IMG/VR virus record: IMGVR_UViG_3300038450_000150
Origin: a virus
Taxonomy: Duplodnaviria; Heunggongvirae; Uroviricota; Caudoviricetes
DNA: 64,000 bases
Strand: one strand, 5' to 3'
The notes beneath the pieces are model-generated. The model saw nothing but the letters and a program-made list of their open reading frames with translations. It made no database searches and was not told the DNA's origin. Positions 2,553 to 58,595 of this stretch are shown piece after piece. The first letter of the stretch is position 1; each line of letters starts with the position of its first letter. The translations under genes were made by a program, and so were the position numbers.

Positions 2553-2572
2553 CCACAGATACGCAGTTGGTG

Positions 2573-2592
2573 TTTATAAATATTGTGGATTA
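2573..2592 (-). promoter_or_regulatory. BRE/TATA-like promoter motif tttataaatattgtggatta
   Basis: Conserved motif 20 nt upstream of the start codon at 2552. Confidence 0.6.
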
Positions 2593-2605
2593 TTGGTTAT
2601 GGAGT

Positions 2606-3046
2606 TTAAGTTCTAGATTCTCCGTTTTCGTGCCTCTTGATCCAATTGCAGTTGGCACAGAGAACTTGGTATATTTTTCTAGCTTCTTCTGGATTCTTTA
2701 TTATTTTCCAGTAGATTCCCCTAGTGGATATCTTGGTGATTTCCTTATGACCACCACCTTGTTTATGATCAACCTGAAGTGTCCGAATATCGGAACAGCC
2801 ACCTGGAACTAAACAGTTTGGATTTGAACATCTTGGCCCACCAAGAACTTCAAAGGCTCTCAGTTTAATTTTCTCACGATATTCCCTTTTCTGTGCGCTT
2901 ATTTCAGCCTTTTTTGCTATGTAATAGTTTTTCCTTTGTTCCTTGATCACTGCTTTGTTTTCCTTGAGGTATGTCTGTCTCTCCTCTTTATGATCTGCTA
3001 CATATACCTTATAGTATTCCTGAGTTTCTTCCTTTGTCCATGTCAT
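2606..3046 (-). CDS. HNH endonuclease
   Basis: Motif LQVDHKQGGGH...CANCN (the D-H...N...C-x2-C HNH signature). Lys-rich coiled N-terminus. Confidence 0.65.
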   Translation of the reverse strand: MTWTKEETQEYYKVYVADHKEERQTYLKENKAVIKEQRKNYYIAKKAEISAQKREYREKIKLRAFEVLGGPRCSNPNCLVPGGCSDIRTLQVDHKQGGGHKEITKISTRGIYWKIIKNPEEARKIYQVLCANCNWIKRHENGESRT

Positions 3047-3270
3047 ACATTATCAAAGATAGCGTGTTCATAGAAGTATATAAAGGTTGTGGATTAGTAA
3101 CCTCTCACCTTTCGTTCATATTCTATTGATTTGCGAACATATTCGGAGTTGTCACTTGCCCGAATAATTCTTCTGATTGTCTCTTCCTGCTCAGGAGAAC
3201 ATGGAACACCATCTGGACCCTTACATCCATCTGGACCTTGAGGACCCATCTGCATCTTTGACATTTACTA

Positions 3271-3534
3271 TCAGTCCTCATTGAGTTCTCGTGCAATCTT
3301 ATGGAGAGCCATATCGTAACCACAGTGGGAACAGTGAACATAAATCCACTGTCTCTCTTCCATAATATTTCCGTAACTGTCTAGAGTTCGAAAACCACCA
3401 TCATGGTCATACTCCCTTAAACCGCTTCCTCTTAATGCCTTTCCACAGAGGCAAGTTGGCTTCTTACTCTCTATCAGGTTGGCCAGATAGGTTAAGTCTA
3501 TCGGTTCTTCGAGTCTGTTCGTCATATTGGTCAA
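3271..3534 (-). CDS. Zn-binding small protein (87 aa)
   Basis: CLCGK...HCSHCGY cysteine pairs. TTTATAAA at 3555-3562 lies 20 nt upstream. Confidence 0.4.
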   Translation of the reverse strand: MTNMTNRLEEPIDLTYLANLIESKKPTCLCGKALRGSGLREYDHDGGFRTLDSYGNIMEERQWIYVHCSHCGYDMALHKIARELNED

Positions 3535-4313
3535 AGCTGATAGGTATGTGTGTGTTTATAAATGTTATGGACTACTGGTGTTTTAATTGAATAAAAAAGC
3601 ATATTTAGATATTCTACACCCTCTTCTGATATGAAGTTTGGGACGTTGTAATTAGCATTTGTGTATCTTCTCTCAGCCAATACTTTCTCATCTGTGATTG
3701 GATTGTAGCCTTTTTTTAAGTAATATTCAGATTTAAGGATTACACCGTTTTGTTGCCATAATGGTGCATAGTCAGTGTCAAAACCTCTCTCCTTACACAC
3801 TTCCTTCAATTGGTTTCCATTGAGTCCCTTGAGAGTACTGGCTGTTTTGGCTGGACTTAGATTATCTACTCTTAACACCATAGCTTCAGCCCAAGCATTT
3901 AGGAAGTTGCGTTTACACTCAGCTTGCCTCCAAATTAAGTATTTAGTAACATCTGCATCATCTACCATTGGGACTATTCTGCAATCAAAACTCGCCTTTG
4001 ACCCTAGCTCGGAGAAGGAAGAAGCAAAGTGACTAGGCATAAGAGAATCAAGTTTTTCTATTCTATCAAAGACAGTTGGCTCAAAAAAGATGAAACTAAT
4101 CTCATCTGAGAAGTAATATGCAAGTGACGGATTAAAAGCCTTGAAGAATTCTCTTGCTGCGTCTAGGAATCTTACAGAAAGCCTATCATCAAATGGCTTC
4201 CTCATTCCTTTTGTAAAGGTGTGAAATGCCCATCCGTCAAGCCTAGCTATAAATGGTGTGGTCACTCGAATATTGTTGAATATCTCCTTATCTTTGAAAT
4301 TCGTTTGCTCCAT
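3531..4313 (-). CDS. thg1: tRNA-His guanylyltransferase-like (Thg1-like 3'-5' nucleotidyltransferase)
   Basis: ARLDGWAFHTF, AYYFSDEISFIF, HFASSF and YLIWRQAECKRNFLN match the Thg1 signature blocks (RLDGRNFHRF / GQSDEYSFVF / SWRQADCHINNLYN). Confidence 0.8.
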   Translation of the reverse strand: MEQTNFKDKEIFNNIRVTTPFIARLDGWAFHTFTKGMRKPFDDRLSVRFLDAAREFFKAFNPSLAYYFSDEISFIFFEPTVFDRIEKLDSLMPSHFASSFSELGSKASFDCRIVPMVDDADVTKYLIWRQAECKRNFLNAWAEAMVLRVDNLSPAKTASTLKGLNGNQLKEVCKERGFDTDYAPLWQQNGVILKSEYYLKKGYNPITDEKVLAERRYTNANYNVPNFISEEGVEYLNMLFYSIKTPVVHNIYKHTHTYQL

Positions 4314-4543
4314 TATTTATCACCTTTGATTCTGATAGTCACTATACTTTCACCATCTATAAGAATAAAGTAACTGCCAATTTCCTTAGTGTTCCAAACA
4401 GCCTTGATTGTCTGACCATCAAATGCAACCATTATTTTTGTAGCCATTTCTGGTGTCATATCAATTGGATTGAGCTTGATGATATCTTTGGATTCAAAAA
4501 GATCCTTTAAATTGGCTGATCTCACATCTCTATGGCTGTGCAT
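4313..4543 (-). CDS. hypothetical protein (76 aa)
   Basis: ORF. Promoter motif at 4572-4591. Confidence 0.35.
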   Translation of the reverse strand: MHSHRDVRSANLKDLFESKDIIKLNPIDMTPEMATKIMVAFDGQTIKAVWNTKEIGSYFILIDGESIVTIRIKGDK

Positions 4544-4588
4544 ATCATTCGTCTAAAATGATGTGTGTGTGTTTATAAAGATTGTGGA

Positions 4589-5449: not shown

Positions 5450-5479
5450 GTCATCACGGATTAGAAACAGAGTGTGCGT

Positions 5480-5746
5480 TTATAAATATTGTGGAACTGG
5501 AGATACCTTATTTATATAATCTGGGTGATTTTTTAGCAATTCCATAGTCTCTTTGAAATAATGCGCCCAAGATCGTGAACCACACATCGGACAGGTGGAG
5601 AAAACCATAACCTTCTCGGAATCACCATAGTCCCTGATGTCCTTCATTGTTCGAAGCCAGTCGAAGTGTGTTGATGTTTTATATCCACATTCTGGGCATT
5701 CATCACTCATTCCCAGTCGGTGGCTTCTTTCCATTATTAGACTCAT
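5480..5746 (-). CDS. Zn-ribbon protein (88 aa)
   Basis: CPECGYK...CPMCGS. TATA variant tttataag at 5769. Confidence 0.4.
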   Translation of the reverse strand: MSLIMERSHRLGMSDECPECGYKTSTHFDWLRTMKDIRDYGDSEKVMVFSTCPMCGSRSWAHYFKETMELLKNHPDYINKVSPVPQYL

Positions 5747-5787
5747 AGGTACAAGTCAAACACTGAGCGTTTATAAGGAATATGGAT

Positions 5788-6884: not shown

Positions 6885-6930
6885 TTTAGTTCGTGTAAGA
6901 GTATGTGTTGGTATTTATAAAGATTGTGGA

Positions 6931-7949: not shown

Positions 7950-8171
7950 TTAGTCTTTATAAATATTTTGAAGTTTCTCGTATGGAACTGCTTGCTTTCT
8001 TTTTATAATTGAAGTCCATTTGATTATATCGTGGTTATAGCCCATTCTGCATTCGTTTGGACGTTCTAGGGGAACTTCGTCAAACTCTTCTTTGCAGTGA
8101 ATACAAACGTATTTTTTATGCAGTTTTAAGCACCTTCTCTTCGTGCCTGAAGAGCATTGCACCGAGATCAC
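7950..8171 (-). CDS. Zn-binding small protein (73 aa)
   Basis: C-x-HC...C pairs. Overlaps the next ORF by 56 nt, so the true start is uncertain. Confidence 0.3.
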   Translation of the reverse strand: MISVQCSSGTKRRCLKLHKKYVCIHCKEEFDEVPLERPNECRMGYNHDIIKWTSIIKRKQAVPYEKLQNIYKD

Positions 8172-9820: not shown

Positions 9821-9923
9821 CTATTACACCATCTGTTCAGTAAATGGTGTTTGTTAGAATTTATAAATATTTGGAATTTTAGTAATCTAATTCAAAAAAA
9901 TGAAGTTTTGAAATTAATTAGTT

Positions 9924-10244: not shown

Positions 10245-10335
10245 CTAATGAACCTCTTTAGTGTATGTAGAATATGTGTATGTGTTTATAAAGATTATCG
10301 TAAAAATTATAAATATTGATAAAAAAGGAATTGGA

Positions 10336-11116: not shown

Positions 11117-11135
11117 TTTATAAATATTTGGATTA
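11117..11135 (-). promoter_or_regulatory. BRE/TATA-like promoter motif
   Basis: tttataaatatttggatta, 28 nt upstream of the start at 11088. Confidence 0.55.
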
Positions 11136-11423: not shown

Positions 11424-11465
11424 TCCACATACAGTTTTGTATGTGAATTTATAAATATTTGGAAT

Positions 11466-11921: not shown

Positions 11922-11958
11922 AGAGGATAAGTAAGTATGAATTTATAAATATTGTGGT

Positions 11959-12737: not shown

Positions 12738-12770
12738 TTGATAAAAAATAGGTTTATGAAGTTATAAACA

Positions 12771-14681
12771 TTAGCCTAAATTAGTCCATTGCCTTGTATG
12801 GAACTCAACTTGTTTCATCTTATTCCAACTTGAGACAGGGACAAAGTATCCGACTATTCTGGTCATCCAGTCAAGTTCGTTTGAGCCACAAACTGGGCAA
12901 GTATTGTAGACACCCATCGAGTTGTGTCCTTTCTTACAGAGTGTGAATCCACGATTCAAGGCAAACTGCACGAGATCTGTGTTCTTGATTAGTCTGTCCT
13001 GGACTTTGAATCCATTGATCTCATCCATCGAGCCAAGGATATTGAGGTGCGCCATACTTCCACCAGTAGTTGTGTTCTGGAACTTGCCCTCAACCTCAAC
13101 TCTCTTACCCATAGGAATGTCATAACTTAGTGGGACAAACTGGCTGTTGTAGAACTGTTTTGTTGCTGTCTCAGGGAATTTGATTTTATCCTTTGCTGCT
13201 AGAAGTCCAGACGCACTTTCTGCTGGAACCTCTTCGATGTTGTACATTACGCCATCTTCGTGGGAGAACTGAACTGATAATTGCTTCATAAGGGATAGTA
13301 TTTTCAGACCTTGTGCCTGTCCTTCACCCTCTGTAATGGTTCCACCCATATACTCAATAGCATCTGCAAAGCCAACAAAGCCTATGGTGCTGAAGAAATT
13401 GGAATCAAGATTGAGTATTCCGTTCCTGAAGAATTCGTGGTACTTTACACGTCTTGCTCCTAGAATGTCTCTTCTGTGAACAAAGAGAAGCTGTCTAGCC
13501 TGACCAACACGATCAACTAGTAGTCTCTCGAACTCAGCCCAATTTCCCTTTGCCTCTAGTGCTATCCTTGGGAGATTGACCGTAACAACAGCGTGTGAAC
13601 CTAGAGTTAGGAAACTGCCAAAGGTGTTGTTGACCTTCATCTTCAACATATCCTCTATGTCGAGAGTTAGCTTGCAACACATAGATAATTTCTTCAAGTC
13701 TGTGTTCATATTTCTAAGAATGTTTAGGAAACAGAAGTCCTTGTTGAGTGTGAGGATCCTGTGATACTCTTCTGGATATTCCTTCTCCATTGAAGGATCA
13801 ATTACCAGAGTTGTTATCGGGAAACGATAAGGCAGATTCTGTAATTTCTTATCTGGACCAACCATACCCTTTGCAAGGAACTCTAGGAAGATCATCTGGT
13901 TCCTCATAATCTCGTCTATTAAATCTCCAATCTTGTAGTCTGAGTCTGGCCAGATATAATCTGCAAACATCGACCTCATAGTCTCTGGACTTAGGATACT
14001 GACGTTTGTGAATGGAGATTGACCTGAGAGGCGTTCCTTATCGGACACACCGTGAACTAGATTTTGCATATCGTTTAGTCTGGATTCATCTGGATAGTTG
14101 CCAACCATCTTTGTGAAGTAACTGTAGTTTACGAAGAAATCTGTGAGTGCTGTCGCTCCAGCAAAGCAATTTGCAGCAGCCTGGATTAGTCGAGCAGTTA
14201 GATTTGTGAAACTTGCTGGACGCTTTGGTGGTAGAGTTGGAACATCACTAAATTGAACTTGACCATAGAGTAAAGGAGTTGTTGAAAGCCCTATACAATA
14301 TGGGAGCTGGTAGAGAGTTGAGTTGTGGATGTAGAGTGCGCCATTGAATACATCACCGATTAACTCATCACCATTGTATTTCCTGCGGTTTGCATATCTC
14401 CTGTAGAGATAATAGCAACTAAGTTTTTCAATGGGATTGTTTACTTCGGTGATTTGATTCACAAAACTCTTCTTCTCTCCAGTATTGCCAAGATTGGCAT
14501 TGGGATTGATTGTAACAGCATCTACTGGTTGCGACCAGTAATCTCTCCTAAGTTTGAAAGGATTGATATTTCCCAAGCCATCCATTTTTATAAGGTCATA
14601 ATCAACATCTGCAAGATAGTCTGCAAATTCCTCATCAAAAGTTCCAAGTATATTTCTGAATTTCAGTTCATCACGATTCAT
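12771..14681 (-). CDS. nrdD: anaerobic ribonucleoside-triphosphate reductase (class III RNR)
   Basis: 636 aa. C-terminal Zn ribbon C...H...CPVCGS followed by the glycyl-radical motif RIVGYF. Confidence 0.85.
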   Translation of the reverse strand: MNRDELKFRNILGTFDEEFADYLADVDYDLIKMDGLGNINPFKLRRDYWSQPVDAVTINPNANLGNTGEKKSFVNQITEVNNPIEKLSCYYLYRRYANRRKYNGDELIGDVFNGALYIHNSTLYQLPYCIGLSTTPLLYGQVQFSDVPTLPPKRPASFTNLTARLIQAAANCFAGATALTDFFVNYSYFTKMVGNYPDESRLNDMQNLVHGVSDKERLSGQSPFTNVSILSPETMRSMFADYIWPDSDYKIGDLIDEIMRNQMIFLEFLAKGMVGPDKKLQNLPYRFPITTLVIDPSMEKEYPEEYHRILTLNKDFCFLNILRNMNTDLKKLSMCCKLTLDIEDMLKMKVNNTFGSFLTLGSHAVVTVNLPRIALEAKGNWAEFERLLVDRVGQARQLLFVHRRDILGARRVKYHEFFRNGILNLDSNFFSTIGFVGFADAIEYMGGTITEGEGQAQGLKILSLMKQLSVQFSHEDGVMYNIEEVPAESASGLLAAKDKIKFPETATKQFYNSQFVPLSYDIPMGKRVEVEGKFQNTTTGGSMAHLNILGSMDEINGFKVQDRLIKNTDLVQFALNRGFTLCKKGHNSMGVYNTCPVCGSNELDWMTRIVGYFVPVSSWNKMKQVEFHTRQWTNLG

Positions 14682-14804
14682 TTTTGGTCAACCAGTTTGT
14701 CTGCCGATAAGCATCGTAGCTATGGTACGAGAGCATATAAATATTATCAGGTCATTATCAAATGAAGAAAATTTATTATAAAAAAATTATGTGGGTGTTT
14801 ATAA

Positions 14805-14874: not shown

Positions 14875-14922
14875 TTCATTAAATTAATAACCATATATTA
14901 CATTTATAAATATTATCACCTA

Positions 14923-17661: not shown

Positions 17662-17725
17662 ATATGATCGAAAGAGATACGATATGAAAGTTTATAAATA
17701 TTATCTGTTTCACGACTACTAGGTT

Positions 17726-22264: not shown

Positions 22265-22309
22265 TTCGGGTTTTTCTAATTATTAAGGTACAGTTTATAT
22301 TTATAAATA

Positions 22310-38120: not shown

Positions 38121-38158
38121 AAAATAACAAATATGAAAGTTTATAAATATTATGAAAA

Positions 38159-38342: not shown

Positions 38343-38350
38343 TTTATAAA
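38343..38350 (-). promoter_or_regulatory. TATA box of the tRNA(CAT)-tRNA-Ile transcription unit
   Basis: gtgtgtttataaagattt. TATA is 21 nt upstream of the mature 5' end. Confidence 0.5.
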
Positions 38351-38353
38351 GAT

Positions 38354-39811
38354 TTATTCTCTGACGATGTAAAGGTTGTTTAATGACCTTGTTAGAGCTA
38401 CAAACTTGCAGTTATCTTCCTCTTTCAACTGCTGGGGATTGCCCTGCTTTACAGCATATGGGTGTGGCATAAGATCATAGCGGAGTATGTAGACGTTCTC
38501 AGACTCAAGTCCCTTAGCCCTATGAACACTGCTGAAAACTATGCCCTCAATATTGTCACGGAAAATGAATTTCACTTTTGATGTAAGATCGGTTATGGTT
38601 TTGCTCTCATCGGCTATAGCAAAGATTGTGTCAACCCTGTCACTGAGGGTGAGTATTGATGCTTCCTTTTTCTGGATCTTCAACTTCTCGGTCTGCTTCT
38701 GCTGGTACTCTTTCAGACCGATTAGGAAAGTGCTGAGATCGGTAGCACCACACATCTTTACGACACGGTTGATTAGGTTCTCAAGCTGATCGCCTATGCT
38801 CTTGCCAACAATTATGACCTTCTTGCCGTTTCGAATAAGTTCGAAGGCTGGTTCTACGAGAGGGGCATTTGTTCGGCAGAGAACCATATCCTTCGGCTGG
38901 ACTTTTTTCATAAATGTGGGATAGTCTATTTCCTCAACTTTTCCCTGCTTGGCATTTGGACCACATTCGTGTGTGATGTTTGGGAAGGTCTTGTTTACAA
39001 AGGCAACGACAGACTTTGGGTTTCTGTAACTGATGCTGAGTGGAAATTCGACAGCATCAAGCATATTTCCCAAGTAATCCATAGCATTGATTCCAGCTCC
39101 ACGGAAACCGTATATGGCTTGGTTTCTGTCACCGATTACTATTGTGCATCCGTTGGGTTTCCTGATTTTGAGGATCATTTGAACCTGAGTCTCGTTCAAG
39201 TCCTGTGCCTCATCAACAAGGACATAATCGTATTTTCTCATTGGGATATCGAGAACGACAGGAAGCCAGATCATATCATCATAATCGATTGTTTGTGTGT
39301 CTTTTTTAGATCGTTGTATAACATAATTAACGGCCTTGAACACTGTTTTTTCATTACCATTTAATTTAATGTTATAGAAATCACACATTTCAATCATAGA
39401 ATCTTCATCTTCTGAATCTGTTAATGTGTTTTTCACATATTGAACAACTTTAGCAATTGTCTGCCAGAGCATTTTATTGACAACAGTGTCCTCTAGGATT
39501 GAGTATGTTTTTTGATTGTCCATAATGAAATTACCATATACATTACGAAGTTCACGATTGCCAAGAGAATGAAGTGTTTTTGCTTCTCCACCAGGCATAT
39601 TTGCTAGTTTTTCTTTTGCCTCAAGTTGATTCTTTTTATTAAAAACAAGATATATCCAGCTTTTATTTTTTGGTATATAATTTTTAATAAACTCTTGAAT
39701 TGTTCGAGTTTTACCAGAGCCAGCAGTTGCACTCACTATGATGTTCTTATCTCCCTTTCTGCCAGCCTCAAAGATTGCCTTCTGGTATGAGGACGGGACG
39801 AATGTTGACAT
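38354..39811 (-). CDS. UvrD/PcrA/Rep-family SF1 DNA helicase
   Basis: Walker A ATAGSGKTR, motif II VLVDEAQDLNETQ, motif III VIGDRNQAIYGFRGA. Confidence 0.75.
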   Translation of the reverse strand: MSTFVPSSYQKAIFEAGRKGDKNIIVSATAGSGKTRTIQEFIKNYIPKNKSWIYLVFNKKNQLEAKEKLANMPGGEAKTLHSLGNRELRNVYGNFIMDNQKTYSILEDTVVNKMLWQTIAKVVQYVKNTLTDSEDEDSMIEMCDFYNIKLNGNEKTVFKAVNYVIQRSKKDTQTIDYDDMIWLPVVLDIPMRKYDYVLVDEAQDLNETQVQMILKIRKPNGCTIVIGDRNQAIYGFRGAGINAMDYLGNMLDAVEFPLSISYRNPKSVVAFVNKTFPNITHECGPNAKQGKVEEIDYPTFMKKVQPKDMVLCRTNAPLVEPAFELIRNGKKVIIVGKSIGDQLENLINRVVKMCGATDLSTFLIGLKEYQQKQTEKLKIQKKEASILTLSDRVDTIFAIADESKTITDLTSKVKFIFRDNIEGIVFSSVHRAKGLESENVYILRYDLMPHPYAVKQGNPQQLKEEDNCKFVALTRSLNNLYIVRE

Positions 39812-40038: not shown

Positions 40039-40084
40039 TTTATACGGTGTAGATGTGTTTAGTACTCTTATAAATATTGTGGAT

Positions 40085-40285: not shown

Positions 40286-40313
40286 AGAAACACGTTAAGA
40301 CTTTATAAATATT

Positions 40314-40389
40314 TGGAGCCCCAGGCAGGACTCGGACCTGCGACCATCAACTTACAAGGTTGACGCACTACCAACTATGCTACAGGGGC
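40314..40389 (-). tRNA. tRNA-Thr (anticodon TGT), CCA encoded
   Basis: GCCCCTG...TCAAC-CTTGTAA-GTTGA...GGTCCGAGTCC...CTGGGGC-T-CCA. One T-T mismatch in the acceptor stem. TATA variant at 40416. Confidence 0.65.
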
Positions 40390-40425
40390 AACAGTGGTAA
40401 AAGGTATGTGTATGGTTATAAATAT

Positions 40426-40929
40426 TTAGATAAAAACAGGAATTTTGTTTATTTTCATTAAGTCTTTAATTGTTATTATTTTTACTTCATTTTCTATATA
40501 ATTTCTAATATTTTCCCATCCCCAGATACATTGTTCATTTTTAACATCTATAAATGGTTCATTATGTTCTTGTGCATTATCCATTGAAGATATTGGATAT
40601 TGTAATAATTTTAAGAGTGGTATCATCACTGCGTTTGTACCACCTTTATTTATTTGAATATAATATGAATATGGTTTTGCATATTTTAATTTACGTTCTA
40701 AAAAATGAACAGAATTGAATGAAAAATAATCGTTCCAATATTTCTCGTGATTTTCTACTTCTATACCACCGACTAATGTTAGAGACTTCATAATTTGTAT
40801 ATCAATATCATATTTCTTTTCATTTCTTTTAATCCAAAACACATTTGATTTAATATTTTTAAAAACACAATTTATTGCAGGATCATTAAATTTTTTATTT
40901 GCTTTCTCGTCATATTCCTTATGACCCAA
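40426..40929 (-). CDS. hypothetical protein (167 aa) with very low-GC codon usage, possible nuclease
   Basis: Lys/Asn/Ile-rich; composition distinct from neighbours. Weak D...E-x-K-like spacing (DIDIQIMK...IEVENHEK). Confidence 0.35.
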   Translation of the reverse strand: MGHKEYDEKANKKFNDPAINCVFKNIKSNVFWIKRNEKKYDIDIQIMKSLTLVGGIEVENHEKYWNDYFSFNSVHFLERKLKYAKPYSYYIQINKGGTNAVMIPLLKLLQYPISSMDNAQEHNEPFIDVKNEQCIWGWENIRNYIENEVKIITIKDLMKINKIPVFI

Positions 40930-40933: not shown

Positions 40934-42730
40934 TCACCTAATAGCTTCCTTAAACCACTTCGGGAAGAATCCTATATTCTGGTTGAATAAGTCTGAGAAC
41001 TTCCCATCAATTATGAAAGTCTCACCCCAATCGTCAACACTTCTACAGACTCTACCATAAGTCTGGATTAGGAGCATTGCGGTTGTCCAGTTGTACCAGG
41101 ATTGATCCTTTTCGACCCTCTTCTTAATCTGAGGATCACCGAGAGATGGATAGGGTACTTTAACTAGGACTTGCCATCTAGCCAAATCATCTTTTAGGTC
41201 GATGCCCATTTTCATACTCGGTGTTGTCATAATGCAAGGTGCTTTTGCTTGGAAGAATCTCTCGAAAGTATCTTCACGCCTCTCATCTGTGTCAATAAAG
41301 TTTCCTCTCTCATCTCTAAGAGAAACATTGGTCATCATATACTGCTTGTATTTTGAATTAGCCATAATATATCTTGCAATTTCGTTATTGTGAGTGTGTA
41401 TTACACCTTTGTGCTGCAAACGAGTTGGAATGATATCGTTGTCAATTATTCTAAGCATATTCGGTAGGAACTGATCCATTTCTTTGAAAATCGCTCTTCC
41501 AGCAAATTTTTGGTAGAGTGGACGATGTTCGACTGGGAATGTTGAGTTGCCTATTCTGAAAAACTTAACCTCTTCTTCTATGCCTAAGTATTTCTGTAAT
41601 TTTTCTTTGTCAAGTATTGTGGCCGATATAAGAATGTGTTTGTCAGTGTGCTTGAAAAGCTGGTCAGAATATTTATTAATTGTAACTGGTTTGAAAGTGG
41701 CAGATGTTTTGTCTTTTAAGACAACCCAGTTATCAATATCATCTTCTAGACTATCTAGCAACTCTGTGATTCTATTTGTTATATTTTCAACTGTTTTACG
41801 ACTCTTCAGTTCTTGTACACGATTTGAACTATCACCTATATCCCTTTGGATTGAGGCGAAAGTTCCATACTTTTCTGAGATCCCTTTAAGTTCACCCTGG
41901 ATATTCTGCAACCATTTTTCCCAATCTTCCATTTTTGTGTATTCTGGTATTATTGGAAATGGCATATCTTTAAAATACATCCAAATACCATTAAATGTTC
42001 TCGAAGAAATTAAAACTTCAATATAGGTCATTAAAGTATTTTCGATTGTGTGTGCCTCATCAAAGATTCCTAAAAATCTTTTATTGAAGCTGTGTGCGTG
42101 ATTTTGTTCGTGAAGGTAATAGGAATAGTTGTGGATGGTAAGAGGTGAATGGATTGCCTTGTCCTTGGCTTGCCAGTAGGCACAGAGTGGATAAGAACAA
42201 TTGCTCCAATCGAACTTAACTCCAAACTTGTCACGATCTGCTCTCGGTGACGCATTATCATCTTCAAAATTTTCTGGGTCAATTTCAGCACCCATCTCCA
42301 TATCGGTTAGTGCAGACTCACGTTTTACTTGGTTTGCCTTGTGGGGGCATTTGTAACCATTAATCAGGGTACACGGTGCTCTGTCTGCATAGAGTGTGTT
42401 CCCTATTCTCTCAGCCCAAAACTCTGGTTCCATATCTCCTGCTGTGAGAGAGCAGGGATAATTGCCCCTACCTTTGATTAGTGCTATGTCTGGAAAATCA
42501 CGTAGATACTGTCCCTGTAGGTAGATGTCGTTTACAACAAAGTGTGTAAGGTTGCCATATTCCTGATAGACATACTTAGCGATTGCATAGGCTACAGGTG
42601 ACTTACCAAAGCCTGTAGGTGCTTCTAGGAAGATGTAATTGTAGGGATCAAGGTTGGCTTCTATAAGACTTAGGATTTCCTTCTGGTATGGACGGAATTC
42701 CTTGAATGGGAAACAGGCTTCAATTGCCAA
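40934..42730 (-). CDS. XPD/Rad3-like SF2 (DEAH) helicase with Fe-S cluster cysteines
   Basis: Walker A EAPTGFGKS, DEAH box FDEAHTIEN, Cys cluster between them (CSLTAG...CTLINGYKCPH...CSYPLC), C-terminal VKVPYPSLGDP. Confidence 0.65.
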   Translation of the reverse strand: MAIEACFPFKEFRPYQKEILSLIEANLDPYNYIFLEAPTGFGKSPVAYAIAKYVYQEYGNLTHFVVNDIYLQGQYLRDFPDIALIKGRGNYPCSLTAGDMEPEFWAERIGNTLYADRAPCTLINGYKCPHKANQVKRESALTDMEMGAEIDPENFEDDNASPRADRDKFGVKFDWSNCSYPLCAYWQAKDKAIHSPLTIHNYSYYLHEQNHAHSFNKRFLGIFDEAHTIENTLMTYIEVLISSRTFNGIWMYFKDMPFPIIPEYTKMEDWEKWLQNIQGELKGISEKYGTFASIQRDIGDSSNRVQELKSRKTVENITNRITELLDSLEDDIDNWVVLKDKTSATFKPVTINKYSDQLFKHTDKHILISATILDKEKLQKYLGIEEEVKFFRIGNSTFPVEHRPLYQKFAGRAIFKEMDQFLPNMLRIIDNDIIPTRLQHKGVIHTHNNEIARYIMANSKYKQYMMTNVSLRDERGNFIDTDERREDTFERFFQAKAPCIMTTPSMKMGIDLKDDLARWQVLVKVPYPSLGDPQIKKRVEKDQSWYNWTTAMLLIQTYGRVCRSVDDWGETFIIDGKFSDLFNQNIGFFPKWFKEAIR

Positions 42731-43730
42731 CGTCTATACCACCGAGTTGATATTTTCTTACGTGATTACGAATTGAAACCTCTGTCACGCCACAGGTTGT
42801 TGCTATAACCTTCTGGGAGATGTTAAGTTCCATCTTCTTGGATGCCAGATAAATTGCACAAGCTGCTACACAGAGTGGACTTGAGCCACTTGTGATTTTT
42901 AAGTCCTCTGCCTCTCTGCAAATCTTTAGGGCTAACATTTCAAATTCACCAGATAGGTTTAACTTAGAGGTGAACTGGGAAATAAAGATTGCAGGATCCC
43001 TGCGAGTTGGCTTGATCTTCATTGATTCTACCATAAGGCGATAGCAACGAGCAATATCCTTCTTGTCGATGCCTGTGACCTCTTCAATATTCTCCATTGT
43101 TGTTGGAATGCCATTCTCTCTGAGGCTGTAGTACATACAGGCAACTAGGATTTGCTGGATTGAACGTCCTCTAATGAGGTTTATGGCCACCGATTTTGTA
43201 AATATATCAAAGATATCGTCATCTATTGCATCTGGTATGCTGAGTCTGTATTTGTAGGTTGTATAAAGTGACCTTGCAGAGGATAGTGTTCTGGTTAGAG
43301 ATGCCTTATCACCTGTTGCCCTATTGTTCATTCTTGAAAGACGAAGATATTCTATCTTCTTTTCTCCTGTAAGTTTCTTGTTTTGACCATCTAAATTTGA
43401 CCAAGGAGCAATCCTTGTATGGCTTGAAGAGCCATTAACGACACCTGGATTTGTGATTGGCGTAGCCCTGTCAAGTTGCTGTGGCTCACCATCAAAGTTT
43501 CGCCATTCCTTGTCTCTGGAAATTACTTGTTCCTCAAGAACAACCAACCCACAGTTTTTGCAAACAACCTCACCAGTAACATTATCGTGATAGAAGTCAC
43601 GACTGCCACAAATTGGGCAGTTTAATGGAGCATCTTGTGGGGCTTCGTGGGACGGGTCATTAGACATAAACATCACTCCTATTGTACCTACATTTATAAA
43701 TATTATGAGATTTTTATCCAAACCACTCAT
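42720..43730 (-). CDS. tfb: transcription factor B (TFB/TFIIB homolog)
   Basis: N-terminal Zn ribbon CPICGS...CKNCG followed by two cyclin-like repeats. 336 aa. Confidence 0.8.
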   Translation of the reverse strand: MSGLDKNLIIFINVGTIGVMFMSNDPSHEAPQDAPLNCPICGSRDFYHDNVTGEVVCKNCGLVVLEEQVISRDKEWRNFDGEPQQLDRATPITNPGVVNGSSSHTRIAPWSNLDGQNKKLTGEKKIEYLRLSRMNNRATGDKASLTRTLSSARSLYTTYKYRLSIPDAIDDDIFDIFTKSVAINLIRGRSIQQILVACMYYSLRENGIPTTMENIEEVTGIDKKDIARCYRLMVESMKIKPTRRDPAIFISQFTSKLNLSGEFEMLALKICREAEDLKITSGSSPLCVAACAIYLASKKMELNISQKVIATTCGVTEVSIRNHVRKYQLGGIDVGN

Positions 43731-51063: not shown

Positions 51064-51145
51064 AACAGCGTCAATACGTAACCCCCACTATAAACTTTAT
51101 AAATATTATCGGCTAGACGGATTTCTTGTTTTTCATAATTTAAAA

Positions 51146-51160
51146 AATATTTATAAAGTG
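51146..51160 (+). promoter_or_regulatory. promoter motif in + orientation (aatatttataaagtg) for the + strand block
   Basis: Reverse-oriented copy of the window-wide motif. About 80 nt upstream of the TTG start of the RFC gene, with the SD-like GAGGGA in between. Confidence 0.45.
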
Positions 51161-56905: not shown

Positions 56906-57158
56906 CTCCGATTTGGACTTGGTTTGTTTCCAGTGGAGTCCAATTGAACACTGGTGCTGTTTGCATATTAAAGCCTATGCCTTTTTCGTAAATATACCAT
57001 AGCGGAATGTCAGCCCACACCGCCTTCTCCGAAACCTTGGCCACCCACTCATCTACATCTTCCTTGCTTAAAAGGAAGTAGGTATAGGGATGATGCTTGA
57101 TTCTGACTTCAACAATCATACAGAGATTTGCTATCCTACCACGAGCAAATTCTTTCAA
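56889..57158 (-). CDS. hypothetical protein (89 aa)
   Basis: ORF. Confidence 0.3.
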   Translation of the reverse strand: MKEFARGRIANLCMIVEVRIKHHPYTYFLLSKEDVDEWVAKVSEKAVWADIPLWYIYEKGIGFNMQTAPVFNWTPLETNQVQIGDDTDG

Positions 57159-57200
57159 TCCAAACCATCCAGCCTTGTTGAGATGTGTATTTCCTACTTT

Positions 57201-57473
57201 TCAAATCTTCATACCTTTTACATTTTTATCTACACTGAAAGGTAGCATTGTTTTAACTTCTATAACCATCCTTCCAAGAGAAGTTACCAGATATATATCT
57301 GGGTGTCCACCCTGACCAGTTGTGGTTTGAATGGAATCTTCACCAAAGTAATGAGCCAGAATCATTTTGACATTCTCCTCACCTTGGTTTCCAATTTCCT
57401 CTCGCTCATCCCTTCCGTACATACCATTCATCTCTTGTAAACATTGTAAAACTGTAACCGAAGTCACAATCAT
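57201..57473 (-). CDS. small PD-(D/E)XK nuclease-like protein (90 aa)
   Basis: GGHPDIYLV...MVIEVKT fits the PD...E-x-K arrangement of Hjc/VRR-NUC-like nucleases. Confidence 0.35.
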   Translation of the reverse strand: MIVTSVTVLQCLQEMNGMYGRDEREEIGNQGEENVKMILAHYFGEDSIQTTTGQGGHPDIYLVTSLGRMVIEVKTMLPFSVDKNVKGMKI

Positions 57474-57747
57474 AGTATTGAATCATATAGTCGTGTTCTT
57501 TGGCGTATTGATTGATCCAGCTCCTAAGAGGAACAAAATGTACAGGTTTGACTCCTTGGTAGTATTCAAACCATTTCTTGAATCCTTCGCTACATTTCTT
57601 CTTAGTGTTTAGGTAGTTCTTACCAATAAGAAAAGTAAAATATTCACCTATATGATGTGTTGATAATCTCCTATCTGACCTATTAATTAAATCCAGCCAT
57701 TTGTTGAGATTATTATGATCTGGAACATAGAGTTGCAACATTATCAC
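57406..57747 (-). CDS. hypothetical protein (113 aa)
   Basis: ORF overlapping the 57201-57473 frame at its 3' end. Confidence 0.3.
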   Translation of the reverse strand: MIMLQLYVPDHNNLNKWLDLINRSDRRLSTHHIGEYFTFLIGKNYLNTKKKCSEGFKKWFEYYQGVKPVHFVPLRSWINQYAKEHDYMIQYYDCDFGYSFTMFTRDEWYVRKG

Positions 57748-57923
57748 CTATGATATACACGGATTTCTGCAAGGCTGTAGACATCGGCTTGAAAGCCTCT
57801 GAGCAAGAGCCTGTTGGGGAAACTGATGTAAAGCCAACAGGGAGACCAGGGGAAGAACTAACCCTACTCTACAGAAGAGTATGCCCATTTCGGATGTCCC
57901 TTGCCTCTTACAGTCCGTAATTA

Positions 57924-58475
57924 TCACACCTGTTGTTGTGTCTCTTTTGGCTTGTTTTTACTACCTTTTGGTCTGCCACCGCCTCTCTTTTTCTGAACTG
58001 GAGATACTACTTGTTCTTGTTCCTGTGGCTGTTCTTGTTCCTGTTCCTCTGGTTGTGTCTGTTTCTCTGGTGGTGTTTGATGAGTACTCACGAATATTGG
58101 CTTTTTTCCTTTTCTCTTCAAGGCACTTGGAATCTTGAGCTTTTCTTGTGGTTTTTGCATTGATTGAAACTGTGGTTTCTTGTGTCTGTCTGGCTTACTT
58201 AACCTAACATATGCGTCCCAATATGTCCAAGTTGAGACAATTGTAATTAGCACAAATAAGATGAATGTTCCAATAACTGTAGCATCTCTATTTTGATAAA
58301 TGAAATCAAGACCAGATATTGGTTCCATCTTATCTAAGGCAAAGTAAACCATAACAAAGAATGTCCAACTAAAGAACACTGCAAATAGGTTTATCAGGAA
58401 TAGTATCCCTTGGCTACCAACTAGGCTTCTAAGTGCCTTAGAAAACCAAGTTGTGAACTTTTCTCTTTGCATCAT
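57924..58475 (-). CDS. polytopic membrane protein with basic C-terminal tail containing an AT-hook-like GRPKG motif
   Basis: Three N-terminal TM helices. Tail ...PEEQEQEQPQEQEQVVSPVQKKRGGGRPKGSKNKPK. Confidence 0.45.
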   Translation of the reverse strand: MMQREKFTTWFSKALRSLVGSQGILFLINLFAVFFSWTFFVMVYFALDKMEPISGLDFIYQNRDATVIGTFILFVLITIVSTWTYWDAYVRLSKPDRHKKPQFQSMQKPQEKLKIPSALKRKGKKPIFVSTHQTPPEKQTQPEEQEQEQPQEQEQVVSPVQKKRGGGRPKGSKNKPKETQQQV

Positions 58476-58518
58476 TAATACACTCTCTTCATTTGGTCGC
58501 TTATACTATGTCTATGCG

Positions 58519-58538
58519 TTTATAAATATTGTGGTTGG
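58519..58538 (-). promoter_or_regulatory. BRE/TATA-like promoter motif
   Basis: tttataaatattgtggttgg upstream of 57924-58475. Confidence 0.5.
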
Positions 58539-58595
58539 GTATCTATACAATAAACGAACACTATATGATAATTCTATTTATATTATACCACATAT

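What the first reader, a model, noticed from the sequence alone, without database searches (positions are those of the whole stretch)
2560..58545. One near-invariant archaeal-type promoter (AATCCACAATAT-TTTATAAA-CACAC) reused at more than 30 gene starts
The 8-bp palindromic TATA box TTTATAAA, extended to tttataaatattgtggatt on the + strand, occurs at 2573, 3555, 4572, 5479, 6914, 7956, 9860, 10285, 11117, 11449, 11943, 14903, 17691, 22300, 23806, 24129, 32942, 33076, 33543, 34543, 34739, 36384, 38139, 38343, 40068, 40302, 43697, 51091, 58519 and others (variants at 5769, 12761, 24533, 40416). Its orientation always matches the gene strand; the single inverted copy at 51146 serves the + block. 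The gap between TATA and start codon is mostly 20-30 nt, with a few instances further upstream (35-60 nt); the gap to mature tRNA 5' ends is 19-22 nt. This fits TBP/TFB-driven initiation about 22 nt downstream, producing leaderless mRNAs. Such uniformity suggests a single temporal class or a dedicated factor; the element encodes its own TFB.
Basis: seen in the sequence. Interest (0 to 1): 0.6.

Follow-up and report, generated by a model that had tools for sequence, protein, structure and literature searches.

The report
Repeated archaeal promoter in a giant peat virus
A roughly 197-kb uncultivated archaeal virus from peat places almost the same 12-base archaeal promoter core (AATA-TTTATAAA) in front of about three dozen genes and tRNAs in this window. 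This is a clean new example of a known viral strategy, and the virus also carries its own copy of the transcription factor (TFB) that reads such promoters.

Summary
TTTATAAA occurs 29 times (2.9 expected). The 12-mer AATATTTATAAA occurs 37 times with at most one mismatch (1.1 expected). A weight matrix finds 36 sites; 35 lie in the 6.7% of the window that is non-coding (P = 2e-40), and every site points the same way as its gene.

The anatomy is that of an archaeal core promoter:
- a BRE-like cCA(c/a)AATA;
- a palindromic TATA box;
- a C/A-rich stretch just downstream, then a G-poor spacer;
- a pyrimidine-G initiator 22-23 nt after the TATA box;
- the ATG most often 28-29 nt after it, and tRNA 5' ends at 21-27 nt.

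Promoter-proximal genes lack Shine-Dalgarno motifs (5/28) while operon-internal genes have them (59/105). Orthologous promoters are conserved islands in related viruses.

Four corrections apply. Only the 12-nt core is near-invariant. There are two upstream flavours. The mRNAs probably carry 5-8-nt leaders rather than none. The consensus was written with one T too many.

The encoded TFB is real and is a conserved core gene (PolB-TFB-XPD) of this virus lineage. The likely hosts (Bathyarchaeia) almost never use TTTATAAA. Whether the viral TFB is a dedicated factor remains untested, because the TFB gene sits behind the same motif.

Verdict: a new member of a known kind (virus-wide consensus BRE/TATA promoters).

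The parts
2573..2588 (-). Promoter: TATA box 2573-2580 plus the 8 nt upstream (BRE-like). Sequence taatccacaata-TTTATAAA-caccaac. Drives ORF 2304-2552.
   Evidence: 28.2 bits. ATG at gap 20 or 29; tGA initiator at +22-24.
3077..3092 (-). Variant promoter (TTTATATA). Drives ORF 2606-3046.
   Evidence: 13.0 bits, gap 30.
3555..3570 (-). Promoter lying inside the last codons of the Thg1-like gene. Drives ORF 3271-3534.
   Evidence: 28.7 bits, ATG gap 29. The only site inside coding sequence.
4572..4587 (-). Promoter driving ORF 4313-4543. The TAA of TAATCC is the stop codon of upstream gene 4589-5143.
   Evidence: 32.5 bits (the best site), gap 28.
5479..5494 (-). Promoter driving ORF 5150-5449.
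   Evidence: 30.4 bits, gap 29.
5770..5785 (-). Variant promoter (CTTATAAA). Drives ORF 5480-5746.
   Evidence: 14.9 bits, gap 23.
6914..6929 (-). Promoter driving ORF 6654-6884.
   Evidence: 29.2 bits, gap 29. The flank is 84% identical to the 2573 copy over 58 nt.
7956..7971 (-). Promoter driving ORF 7299-7919.
   Evidence: 29.5 bits, gap 36.
9860..9875 (-). Promoter driving ORF 9422-9820.
   Evidence: 29.7 bits, gap 39.
10285..10300 (-). Promoter (ATAATC flavour) driving ORF 9924-10244.
   Evidence: 24.4 bits, gap 40.
11117..11132 (-). Promoter driving the collagen-like protein gene 10336-11088.
   Evidence: 31.0 bits, gap 28.
11448..11463 (-). Promoter driving ORF 11133-11423.
   Evidence: 31.4 bits, gap 24 or 33.
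11942..11957 (-). Promoter driving ORF 11712-11921.
   Evidence: 29.7 bits, ATG gap 29.
12761..12776 (-). Variant promoter (TTTATAAC). Drives ORF 12423-12737.
   Evidence: 10.4 bits, gap 23.
14734..14749 (-). Variant promoter (gataata-TTTATATG). Drives NrdD 12771-14681.
   Evidence: 12.6 bits, gap 52.
14903..14918 (-). Promoter-like site with no ORF within 60 nt, 221 nt upstream of NrdD.
   Evidence: 17.5 bits. Its target is unexplained.
17691..17706 (-). Promoter (gATAATA flavour) driving the operon 17661 to 14923, which includes the ERCC4 nuclease.
   Evidence: 24.1 bits, gap 29.
22300..22315 (-). Promoter (cATAATA flavour) driving the operon 22264 to 17726, which includes a radical-SAM protein.
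   Evidence: 26.1 bits, gap 35 (TTG) or 50 (ATG).
23805..23820 (-). Promoter driving ORF 23411-23746 with a leader of about 36 nt.
   Evidence: 17.4 bits, gap 58.
24129..24144 (-). Promoter driving ORF 23818-24099.
   Evidence: 25.1 bits, gap 29.
24538..24553 (-). Variant promoter (TTTATAAG). Drives ORF 24172-24513.
   Evidence: 15.6 bits, gap 24.
32942..32957 (-). Promoter driving the SPFH/Band-7 protein gene 31056-32900.
   Evidence: 29.1 bits, gap 41.
33073..33088 (-). Promoter driving tRNA-Trp 32961-33045.
   Evidence: 27.0 bits, gap 27 to the tRNA 5' end.
33542..33557 (-). Promoter driving ORF 33094-33522.
   Evidence: 26.0 bits, ATG gap 28.
34543..34558 (-). Promoter driving tRNA-Lys(UUU) 34441-34520.
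   Evidence: 28.3 bits, gap 22. The tRNA 5' G coincides with the predicted start site.
34740..34755 (-). Promoter driving the tRNA-Lys(CUU) and tRNA-Arg pair 34718 to 34560.
   Evidence: 15.4 bits, gap 21.
36384..36399 (-). Promoter driving ORF 36145-36354 and the downstream small genes.
   Evidence: 29.9 bits, gap 29.
38140..38155 (-). Promoter (cATAATA flavour) driving the ORF that starts at 38120, followed by collagen-like gene 37022-37867.
   Evidence: 27.1 bits, gap 19.
38343..38358 (-). Promoter driving the tRNA-Met and tRNA-Ile pair 38321 to 38159.
   Evidence: 15.5 bits, gap 21.
40067..40082 (-). Variant promoter (taatccacaata-TTTATAAG). Drives ORF 39814-40038, followed by the UvrD-like helicase.
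   Evidence: 16.9 bits, gap 28.
40302..40317 (-). Promoter-like site abutting the 3' end of tRNA-Thr, with no clear ORF downstream. It has a cGA initiator at +21-23.
   Evidence: 19.3 bits. Its target is unexplained.
40415..40430 (-). Variant promoter (TTTATAAC). Drives tRNA-Thr 40314-40389.
   Evidence: 21.5 bits, gap 25.
43693..43708 (-). Promoter (cATAATA flavour) between the PolB stop codon and the TFB start codon. Drives the TFB-XPD operon.
   Evidence: 23.3 bits. ATAATATTTATAAA and the 25-nt gap are conserved in relative L004, and a TATA box is also present at this position in L015 and L017.
42720..43667 (-). Virus-encoded transcription factor B. It has a Zn ribbon, a B-reader and two cyclin folds. 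The conserved start is the ATG at 43667.
   Evidence: Pfam TFIIB 1.7e-26 and Zn_Ribbon_TF 5e-13. PDB TFIIB/TFB matches at 1e-33 and 4e-26. Relatives are 51-75% identical; cellular TFBs are at most 36% identical.
51096..51111 (-). Promoter (gATAATA flavour) driving the operon 51063 to 43714, which ends with PolB.
   Evidence: 17.7 bits, gap 32. An orthologous site lies in L015 at 10013.
51142..51157 (+). The only + strand copy. Drives the RFC-like / PD-(D/E)XK / AAA / primase-helicase block 51239-56047 through a leader of about 60 nt that carries a Shine-Dalgarno motif.
   Evidence: 17.3 bits. An orthologous site lies in L015 at 9348.
58519..58534 (-). Promoter driving block 58475 to 56124, which ends with UDG.
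   Evidence: 27.0 bits, gap 43. An orthologous site lies in L015 at 1756.
30206..30213 (-). Weaker variant TATA box (TTTATATT), 30 nt before the start of the small-gene block at 30175.
   Evidence: Read directly from the sequence. It scores below the PWM threshold.
30288..30295 (+). Weaker variant TATA box (gataattc-TTTTATCT), 29 nt before the ATG at 30325.
   Evidence: Read directly from the sequence.

Best explanation
The motif is the core promoter of a large (about 197 kb) uncultivated archaeal virus or virus-like element from peat.

Each copy is a complete archaeal pre-initiation-complex site with five parts:
1. A BRE-like element, c-C-A-(c/a)-A-A-T-A at -8 to -1. This would be read by the C-terminal helix-turn-helix of a TFB, and it gives direction to an otherwise palindromic TATA box.
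2. The TATA box TTTATAAA, the TBP site.
3. A C/A-alternating stretch at +1 to +8, possibly a downstream TFB contact.
4. A G-poor spacer.
5. A pyrimidine-G initiator 22-23 nt after the TATA box.

Host RNA polymerase recruited by TBP and TFB would start there. That gives mRNAs with leaders of about 5-8 nt and no Shine-Dalgarno motif. It also gives tRNA precursors whose 5' end is at, or a few nucleotides before, the mature end. Genes further inside the operons are translated through Shine-Dalgarno motifs.

What is shown: the sequence architecture, the positions, the strand logic and the conservation. What is inferred: the transcription start sites, promoter strength, and which TFB (host or viral) is used.
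For: Enrichment and placement:
- TTTATAAA 29 vs 2.9 expected; 12-mer 37 vs 1.1.
- 35 of 36 sites lie in the 6.7% non-coding DNA (P = 2e-40), and the top non-coding 8-mers are all pieces of the motif.
- Orientation always follows the gene strand.

Anatomy:
- Information content is confined to -8..+8 around the TATA box, plus the +1..+8 stretch and the initiator.
- Position +21 is a pyrimidine in 31 of 36 sites. A YG with the G at +22 or +23 occurs in 24 of 36. The spacer is only 10% G.
- The ATG mode lies at gap 28-29.
- tRNA 5' ends lie at gaps 21, 21, 22, 25 and 27, and the tRNA ends are confirmed by both ARAGORN and Rfam.

Translation signals:
- Shine-Dalgarno-like motifs occur in 5 of 28 promoter-proximal genes against 59 of 105 internal genes (Fisher p = 2.8e-4).

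Conservation in relatives:
- Between the PolB stop and the TFB start of a relative with 73-87% protein identity, only ATAATATTTATAAA, the start region and the 25-nt gap are conserved.
- The sites at 51096, 51150, 58519 and 43693 have orthologues in L015. The distant relative L017 keeps a TATA box 29 nt before its TFB gene.
- Nine more copies lie in the 8.8 kb beyond the window start.

Compatibility with a cellular pre-initiation complex:
- A at -3 matches the TFB contact position cited for Sulfolobus (PMC11065993, citing Qureshi & Jackson 1998).
- A at -3/-4 matches the Bathyarchaeia consensus derived here.

Other models:
- Sigma-70-like promoters are not enriched (56 vs 58 expected).
Against: - There are no transcript data, so start sites are inferred from sequence geometry alone.
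- Three sites (14903, 23805, 40302) have no gene start within about 50 nt.
- A few gaps (19-20 nt) are shorter than the predicted start distance. This means either a mis-called start codon or variable initiation.
- Some transcription units lack a strong copy: the small-gene block 24554-30175, the GH5 gene, and the glycosylation operon at and beyond the window end. The motif is therefore not the only promoter type.
- The host is not identified directly.
Confidence: 0.85

Rival explanations
1. Dedicated-factor version (a refinement of the best explanation). The virus-encoded TFB, rather than the host TFB, recognises the virus-specific BRE/TATA flavour and redirects host RNA polymerase to viral promoters. 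This would work like a phage sigma factor or a cellular TFB paralogue.
For: - The TFB is a full-length, conserved core gene located PolB-TFB-XPD in all four related genomes.
- It forms a small clade that is 51-75% identical internally but at most 36% identical to any cellular TFB among 185,579 species genomes.
- The C-terminal half of its recognition helix differs consistently from cellular TFBs: RNHVRK against RNRYK.
- An unrelated integrated element in a Bathyarchaeon (L001) carries a TFB of the same clade. It has 8 TTTATAAA in 11.6 kb, mostly as ATAAT-n-TTTATAAAc, while 38 kb of the matching host lineage has none.
- Across 661 kb of Bathyarchaeia DNA, TTTATAAA is 25 times rarer than in the window. 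Host promoters read aAAA-nn-YTTAAATA, and host tRNA promoters have a G-rich distal BRE (GGGTTAtG) instead of cCA.
Against: - The TFB gene itself lies behind the same core motif, so host factors must fire it at least once.
- The BRE-proximal AA at -4/-3 matches the host consensus.
- The N-terminal half of the recognition helix (VTEV[ST][IV]RN), the part most important for base recognition (PMC4581349), is conserved.
- The TATA box is read by TBP, and no viral TBP was found among the window ORFs I scanned.
- The host assignment is indirect.
Confidence: 0.3
2. The conserved flanks (TAATCCAC upstream, CACACA downstream) are operators for a virus-encoded repressor or activator. This would define an early-gene regulon, as with the Aca8-type regulatory sequence around early anti-defence gene promoters of SIRV2.
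For: - The flank-rich copies cluster in a 20-kb region of single small genes of unknown function. There are 21 copies in about 20 kb across the window start and its extension, often one per gene.
- That is the layout described for early or anti-defence genes in archaeal viruses (PMC11065993).
Against: - Information content outside -8..+8 is low: at most 0.4 bit per position upstream of -8.
- The flanks have no dyad symmetry.
- The same flavour also precedes tRNA genes and a collagen-like (structural-type) gene.
- No regulator was identified.
Confidence: 0.15
3. The copies are passive repeats spread by duplication or by a small mobile cassette, with no promoter function.
For: - Some copies share longer similarity. 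2566-2623 and 6907-6964 are 84% identical over 58 nt.
- Beyond the window start, a family of small genes shares promoter, leader and first codons (TGACCAATATGACCTTTGA).
Against: - Most downstream genes are unrelated. Only 3 paralogue pairs exist in the window, and none of them pairs two promoter-proximal genes.
- Conservation collapses outside about 30 bp.
- Spacing to start codons and tRNA ends is fixed, and the Shine-Dalgarno dichotomy holds.
- Orthologous copies are conserved islands in diverged relatives.
- There are no terminal inverted repeats or target duplications.
Confidence: 0.03
4. It is a bacterial or phage-type (sigma-dependent) promoter, or an AT-rich binding site unrelated to transcription, such as a replication or packaging repeat.
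For: None beyond AT-richness.
Against: - Sigma-70-like sites are at chance level (56 vs 58.1).
- The element encodes TFB, archaeal-type PolB, RFC, XPD and ERCC4.
- The sites are dispersed at gene starts rather than clustered.
Confidence: 0.01

Closest known systems
Consensus early-gene promoters of archaeal viruses: the SIRV2 and other rudi-, lipothrix- and fusellovirus 'anti-defence gene' regulatory sequences (Nat Commun 2024, PMC11065993)
   Same: A nearly identical BRE + TATA core is repeated in front of many small, unrelated, often single genes of one virus genome. It is interpreted as a strong promoter read by the host machinery. Flanks are conserved within a virus but differ between viruses.
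   Different: - Here the core is AATA-TTTATAAA rather than purine-rich BRE + TTTAWATA.
- It also drives tRNA genes and the replication operons (NrdD, PolB, TFB-XPD, RFC), not only terminal small genes.
- The host is probably a mesophilic Bathyarchaeon rather than a member of the Sulfolobales.
- No Aca-like regulator or dyad operator was found.
- The virus encodes its own TFB.
Canonical archaeal core promoter: BRE / TATA box centred near -26/-27 / Inr (general knowledge; TFB HTH-BRE recognition as summarised in PMC4581349)
   Same: The order and spacing of the elements match. A at -3 of the BRE matches. There is a pyrimidine-purine initiator 22-23 nt after the 8-bp TATA box. The BRE provides polarity to a symmetric TATA box.
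   Different: Uniformity is unusually high: 23 exact copies of a 12-mer in 64 kb. The TATA box is perfectly palindromic. There is a C/A-alternating stretch immediately downstream of the TATA box.
Virus- and MGE-encoded TFB homologues: WyrdV1 and Asgard MGEs, and some rod-shaped viruses of Crenarchaeota (bioRxiv 10.1101/2021.07.29.453957)
   Same: An archaeal virus or MGE carries a TFB homologue, presumed to recruit host RNA polymerase to viral genes.
   Different: - This is a different clade, at most 36% identical to any cellular TFB found here.
- It sits in a conserved PolB-TFB-XPD module of a large virus.
- I did not compare it by sequence with the Asgard or rudiviral TFBs.
- The function of any viral TFB is untested experimentally, as far as the papers I read state.
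Phage promoter families tied to a phage-encoded specificity factor: T7-type RNAP promoters, T4 late promoters with gp55 (own knowledge)
   Same: Many near-identical short promoters occur in one viral genome together with a virus-encoded promoter-recognition protein.
   Different: The machinery is bacterial. Here the link between factor and promoter is only hypothetical.
Leaderless tRNA transcription in Nanoarchaeum equitans (Randau et al. 2008; own knowledge, not re-read here)
   Same: The promoter sits at a fixed distance so that the predicted start coincides with the mature tRNA 5' end. Three of five tRNA promoters here have gaps of 21-22 nt, against 26-27 nt in Bathyarchaeia tRNA genes.
   Different: Two tRNA genes have gaps of 25-27 nt, and two promoters drive tRNA pairs that still need processing. 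The probable host encodes RNase P subunits.

Membership tests
Archaeal BRE/TATA/Inr core promoter | An A/T-rich 8-bp TATA box at a fixed distance upstream of the transcribed unit, oriented with it | tested here: met
   TTTATAAA or a one-mismatch variant at 36 sites. 33 have a gene or tRNA start 19-58 nt downstream on the same strand.
Archaeal BRE/TATA/Inr core promoter | A conserved BRE immediately upstream of the TATA box, with an A at -3 | tested here: met
   A at -3 and -4 in 29 of 29 exact sites, T at -2 in 27, A at -1 in 25, C at -7 in 22, A at -6 in 20.
Archaeal BRE/TATA/Inr core promoter | A pyrimidine-purine initiator about 22-27 bp downstream of the TATA box | tested here: met
   Pyrimidine at +21 in 31 of 36 sites. 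YG with the G at +22/23 in 24 of 36. This coincides with the tRNA 5' ends.
Archaeal BRE/TATA/Inr core promoter | Transcripts actually start there; TBP and TFB bind | not testable with these tools
   No transcriptome or biochemistry is available for this uncultivated virus.
Archaeal BRE/TATA/Inr core promoter | Located in intergenic DNA rather than spread through coding sequence | tested here: met
   35 of 36 sites lie in the 6.7% non-coding DNA, P = 2e-40.
Virus-wide consensus 'early/anti-defence' promoter regulon (SIRV2 type) | Near-identical promoter core in front of many small unrelated genes of one virus | tested here: met
   21 copies in about 20 kb of small ORFs. Only 3 paralogue pairs in the window.
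Virus-wide consensus 'early/anti-defence' promoter regulon (SIRV2 type) | Immediate-early timing and anti-defence function of the downstream genes | not testable with these tools
   No expression data. The small ORFs have no family matches.
Virus-wide consensus 'early/anti-defence' promoter regulon (SIRV2 type) | A conserved regulator-binding sequence around the core, with a cognate regulator | tested here: inconclusive
   The flanks TAATCC and CACACA are conserved in a subset, but information content is low and there is no dyad. No regulator was identified.
TFB / TFIIB family (the encoded factor) | An N-terminal Zn ribbon, a B-reader/linker and two cyclin-like repeats ending in a helix-turn-helix | tested here: met
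   Pfam Zn_Ribbon_TF 5e-13 and TFIIB repeat 1.7e-26 with two stretches. It aligns over residues 19-307 to human TFIIB and over 129-307 to P. woesei TFBc, including GVTEVSIRN.
Promoter class dedicated to a virus-encoded initiation factor | The viral factor has a promoter specificity distinct from the host factor | not testable with these tools
   Only indirect evidence exists: different TATA and distal-BRE flavours in Bathyarchaeia and recognition-helix substitutions.
Bacterial sigma-70 promoter | -35 and -10 hexamers enriched upstream of genes | tested here: not met
   56 matches against 58.1 +/- 6.7 in shuffles for 1-20000.

The most novel reading that the evidence does not exclude
The conserved virus-encoded TFB is a takeover factor. 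It would prefer the virus-specific BRE (C-7, A-6 ... AATA) next to the perfect TATA box, which the Bathyarchaeal host almost never uses. It would thereby switch host RNA polymerase from host to viral promoters, an archaeal counterpart of phage sigma factors. The gene sits behind its own promoter type, which would give positive feedback. A second unusual point is that several viral tRNAs would be made with their mature 5' end directly by initiation, bypassing RNase P, in a genome that also encodes a Thg1-like tRNA 5'-end enzyme.
Probability: 0.3. Interest if true: 0.8.

Novelty: new member of a known kind. Interest (0 to 1): 0.5.

Why it matters
- It gives a ready-made, high-confidence promoter map (BRE, TATA box, initiator, leader length) for a large, completely uncharacterised archaeal virus lineage, probably one that infects Bathyarchaeia. 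No transcription signals have been described for that group in the papers I found.
- It corrects start codons. For example, TFB starts at 43667, and several TTG or GTG calls should be ATGs at +29.
- It defines operons.
- It flags about 20 individually promoted small genes as candidate early or anti-defence genes.
- The pairing of a lineage-conserved viral TFB with a promoter flavour that is rare in the probable hosts makes the open question 'what do viral TFBs do?' directly testable with a few recombinant proteins and short DNA templates.

Tried and rejected
- Megablast of 20 kb of the window against the phage collection gave no match.
- PolB searched as a protein against IMG/VR and against JGI metagenome contigs gave no relatives. 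Relatives were instead reached through protein look-ups.
- The exact 18-mer ATCCACAATATTTATAAA in IMG/VR gave 5 single hits in unrelated AT-rich contigs, including giant-virus MAGs. I judged these to be chance matches, because each carries one copy only.
- The genome-contig scan with the viral TFB alignment found only cellular TFBs at 36% identity or less, so no provirus was found. The search pattern (..KKDIARCY) favours Bathyarchaeia-type TFBs, so '55 of 80 loci are Bathyarchaeia' is weak host evidence on its own.
- I tried splitting the sites into two classes by upstream flavour and testing for different downstream sequence. The difference was not significant (Mann-Whitney p = 0.16). I report the flavours as a description only.
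- The Rfam scan found only the 7 tRNAs, so the three orphan promoter sites are not explained by known RNAs.
- A look-up of ORF 63119-63592 failed because no identical gene call is on record.
- No TBP was found among the roughly 40 larger window ORFs scanned. The many ORFs under 140 aa and the other 117-133 kb of the genome were not scanned.
- The Bathyarchaeia virus paper (PMC10848311) and the SPRUCE virome paper (PMC8626947) do not describe this element, its TFB or its promoters.

Full report
**Where the window comes from.** The window is part of a roughly 197-kb contig recovered repeatedly from peat. It appears as NCBI JAFMOA010002524.1 (197,240 bp), a viral OTU of the SPRUCE peat virome, and as JGI 3300018005 Ga0187878_1000020 (PMC8626947, which does not describe it). 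Another assembly reaches 197,619 bp. The window runs past the end of those contigs, so the genome is circular or circularly permuted.

Genes identified in the window:
- NrdD, a radical-SAM protein and an ERCC4 nuclease;
- a Thg1-like enzyme and seven tRNAs;
- UvrD-like and XPD-like helicases, family-B DNA polymerase and two RFC-like ATPases;
- a PD-(D/E)XK nuclease, a DUF3987 primase-helicase and UDG;
- a GH5 glycosidase and GT2;
- two collagen-like proteins;
- a full-length transcription factor B.

The polymerase is only about 24% identical to its best match among deposited viruses, the haloarchaeal tailed viruses. About 135 mostly small genes lie almost all on the - strand up to 51 kb.

- TTTATAAA occurs 29 times against 2.9 expected.
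- AATATTTATAAA with at most one mismatch occurs 37 times against 1.1.
- A weight matrix built from the exact copies finds 34 sites of at least 12 bits on the - strand and 3 on the + strand, against 0.5 per strand by chance. After inspection I keep 36 sites.
- Non-coding DNA is 6.7% of the window, yet 35 of the 36 sites lie in it (P = 2e-40). In an unbiased comparison of 8-mers between non-coding and coding DNA, the top words are all pieces of this motif; TTTATAAA scores 27 non-coding against 1 coding.
- A general repeat finder recovers the same element as 23-44-nt families.
- Every copy points the same way as the gene downstream. The one + copy (51146-51157) faces the only long + strand block.

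**Anatomy.** Aligning the sites on the TATA box gives the following picture.
- Upstream, A-4, A-3, T-2 and A-1 are almost invariant. C-7 occurs in 22 of 29 and A-6 in 20 of 29. Further upstream there is little information.
- Downstream, C and A alternate weakly over +1 to +8. Then comes a spacer with only 10% G.
- Position +21 is a pyrimidine in 31 of 36 sites, and G peaks at +22 and +23. In 24 of 36 sites there is a pyrimidine-G step with the G at +22 or +23.
- This is where an archaeal initiator is expected for an 8-bp TATA box centred near -26/-27 (established knowledge).
- The first ATG that opens a real ORF is most often 28-29 nt after the TATA box: 12 of 28 sites fall at 28-30, and other sites have an alternative ATG there. 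The predicted leaders are therefore about 5-8 nt.
- The five tRNA transcription units begin 21, 21, 22, 25 and 27 nt after the TATA box. Three mature tRNA 5' ends fall exactly on the predicted start nucleotide.
- The conserved span as a whole equals the expected TBP/TFB footprint plus the initiator.
- Because TTTATAAA is a perfect palindrome, the asymmetric flanks must set the direction. This is the known role of the BRE.

**Independent support for promoter function.**
- Translation signals split as expected. Shine-Dalgarno-like motifs (GGAGG, GGTGA and the like) precede 59 of 105 operon-internal genes but only 5 of 28 promoter-proximal genes (Fisher p = 2.8e-4).
- The copies are conserved islands in relatives.
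  - L004 shares 82% (PolB), 73% (TFB) and 87% (XPD) protein identity with the window. Its spacer between the PolB stop and the TFB start has diverged except for ATAATATTTATAAA, the start-codon region and the 25-nt gap.
  - In a 105-kb relative (L015, about 87% protein identity), the promoters of the PolB operon, the RFC block, the UDG block and TFB are all present at orthologous places.
  - In a distant relative (L017, 41% identity on the query protein), a TATA box still sits 29 nt before TFB.
- The 8.8 kb beyond the window start holds nine more copies with the same 28-30-nt spacing. The 7.1 kb beyond the other end, a glycosylation operon, holds none.
- Bacterial-type promoters are not enriched.

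- Only the 12-nt core is near-invariant.
- There are two upstream flavours. TCCA[CA]AATA accounts for about 22 sites; these precede mostly single small genes, tRNAs, a collagen-like gene and the SPFH gene. [GC]ATAATA accounts for about 9 sites, including those before NrdD, the ERCC4 operon, the PolB operon and TFB-XPD. The second flavour is also the one seen in L004, L015 and L001. The split is descriptive; I could not separate the classes statistically on downstream sequence.
- Weaker variants with the same spacing exist: 30206-30213 (-) and 30288-30295 (+).
- Some units have no strong copy.
- Gene duplication contributed locally. 2566-2623 and 6907-6964 are 84% identical over 58 nt, and a small-gene family beyond the window start shares promoter, leader and first codons. 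Most promoted genes are nevertheless unrelated.

**Host and host promoters.** The host is not known directly. Three lines point to Bathyarchaeia.
- A TFB of the same clade (51% identical) sits in an integrase-bearing element (L001) inserted between the RNase P Rpp14 gene and rpoN of a Bathyarchaeon. The flanking p30 gene is 85% identical to that of MAG MFD03726.bin.1.105, whose uninterrupted locus is L014.
- The best cellular matches of the viral TFB are Bathyarchaeia, and its first helix-turn-helix (IDKKDIARCYRLM) is identical to theirs. The search pattern biases this result.
- Bathyarchaeia are common in peat (own knowledge).

In 661 kb from 55 Bathyarchaeia loci, TTTATAAA occurs 12 times (0.018 per kb against 0.45 per kb in the window), and the 12-mer occurs once against 23 times. 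An EM search on 373 upstream regions gives aAAA-nn-(C/T)TTAAATA, most often 25-35 nt before the start codon. Host tRNA promoters read GGGTTAtG-TTTATAT(T/C) or GAGGA-TTTAAATC and lie 26-27 nt before the tRNA.

The viral promoter therefore shares the proximal A-rich BRE with the host. It differs in the TATA flavour and in the distal BRE. The L001 element has 8 TTTATAAA in 11.6 kb (mostly ATAAT-n-TTTATAAAc), while 38 kb of its host lineage has none.

**The TFB.** It is full length, with a Zn ribbon, a B-reader and two cyclin repeats. It is conserved in the order PolB-TFB-XPD in all relatives. It belongs to a small clade: five relatives among 5.8 billion proteins, plus the L017 copy.

Its BRE-recognition helix keeps the N-terminal VTEV(S)IRN but has HVRK where cellular TFBs have RYK(E/G). 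This is compatible with either unchanged or shifted specificity.

The TFB gene lies behind the same core promoter, so host factors must be able to use that promoter at least initially. I therefore treat 'dedicated factor' as an open refinement with a probability of about 0.3, not as shown.

**Comparison with what is known.** The closest described phenomenon is the near-identical BRE/TATA core, with virus-specific flanks, that precedes many small early (anti-defence) genes in SIRV2 and other archaeal viruses (PMC11065993). TFB homologues have been noted in Asgard viruses and MGEs and in some rod-shaped crenarchaeal viruses, without functional study (bioRxiv 10.1101/2021.07.29.453957).

This case is a new member of that kind. 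It occurs in a much larger genome and an unrelated lineage, and it extends to tRNA genes and replication operons. It comes with a particularly clear initiator and leader geometry and a lineage-conserved TFB.

**Verdict.**
- Observation: confirmed.
- Interpretation as an archaeal promoter: well supported by sequence evidence (0.85).
- 'Leaderless' should read 'very short leaders'.
- 'One invariant promoter' should read 'one 12-nt core with two flavours'.
- The link to the viral TFB remains a testable hypothesis.

Noticed in passing
window 3531-4313 (-), with tRNA genes at 32961-40389: The element encodes a Thg1-like tRNA 5'-end nucleotidyltransferase (Pfam Thg1, 1.6e-19) and seven tRNAs. Three of those tRNAs have predicted transcription starts that coincide with the mature 5' end. 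A link between start-defined tRNA 5' ends and a 5'-end repair or extension enzyme is possible.
   Followed up: partly
window 14903-14918, 23805-23820, 40302-40317 (-): Three good promoter copies have no ORF start within about 50 nt. 40302 has a canonical cGA initiator and abuts the 3' end of tRNA-Thr. They may drive unknown small RNAs or long leaders; the one at 14903 lies 221 nt upstream of NrdD. Rfam finds nothing there.
   Followed up: partly
window 4589-4591, 6931-6933, 11959-11961: The TAA in the upstream TAATCC/TAAACC part of the promoter doubles as the stop codon of the preceding gene. At 5480-5482 the stop codon lies inside the TATA box itself. The packing is extreme, with only 6.7% non-coding DNA.
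   Followed up: no
window 30962-31055 (-): The leader before gene 30581-30961 is about 80 nt long and repetitive, rich in A, G and T (gtaaagt / agtgcagt units). It follows a TTTTTTAAAG box and is unlike the other promoters.
   Followed up: no
L099 13500-18900 (8.8 kb beyond window position 1): A tandem family of small genes, each with its own promoter copy. They share TAATCCACAAT..TTTATAAA..ACACAC..TGACCAATATGACCTTTGA, that is, promoter, leader and first codons (MTFE...). This looks like a recently expanded, individually promoted gene family and is a candidate early or anti-defence set.
   Followed up: partly
L001 1003-12665 (ENA ERZ27247850 k141_1516244): An integrase-bearing element is inserted between Rpp14 and rpoN of a Bathyarchaeon. 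It carries a TFB of the same clade with a C-terminal extension of about 100 aa (415 aa in total) and TTTATAAA-type promoters, in a GC-rich (51%) background.
   Followed up: partly
window 47195-47752 (-); L017 5348-8662: An HNH-AP2 homing-endonuclease-like gene sits in the PolB operon. In the distant relative, the PolB gene carries an intein with a LAGLIDADG domain (1104 aa).
   Followed up: no
window 58596-60872 (+), 62187-63122 (-); L100 1-9987: A 758-aa protein with two GH5 (cellulase) domains lies next to a glycosylation operon of about 10 kb (methyltransferases, WbqC, PIG-L, GT2, hexapeptide transferase). This is unusual cargo for an archaeal virus. The operon has no copy of the promoter motif within the sequence I hold (its start lies beyond L100); the GH5 gene has only a weak TTTATATT box 11 nt before its called start codon.
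   Followed up: no
window 10336-11088 and 37022-37867 (-): Two paralogous collagen-repeat proteins match phage tail-fibre families through their collagen repeats. They are the only hint of virion genes in the window. No capsid, portal or terminase gene was seen in the window.
   Followed up: partly
window 51064-51238: This divergent intergenic region holds two separate, oppositely oriented motif copies whose TATA boxes start 54 nt apart, rather than one shared palindromic TATA box. The virus therefore does not use the palindrome bidirectionally here.
   Followed up: yes
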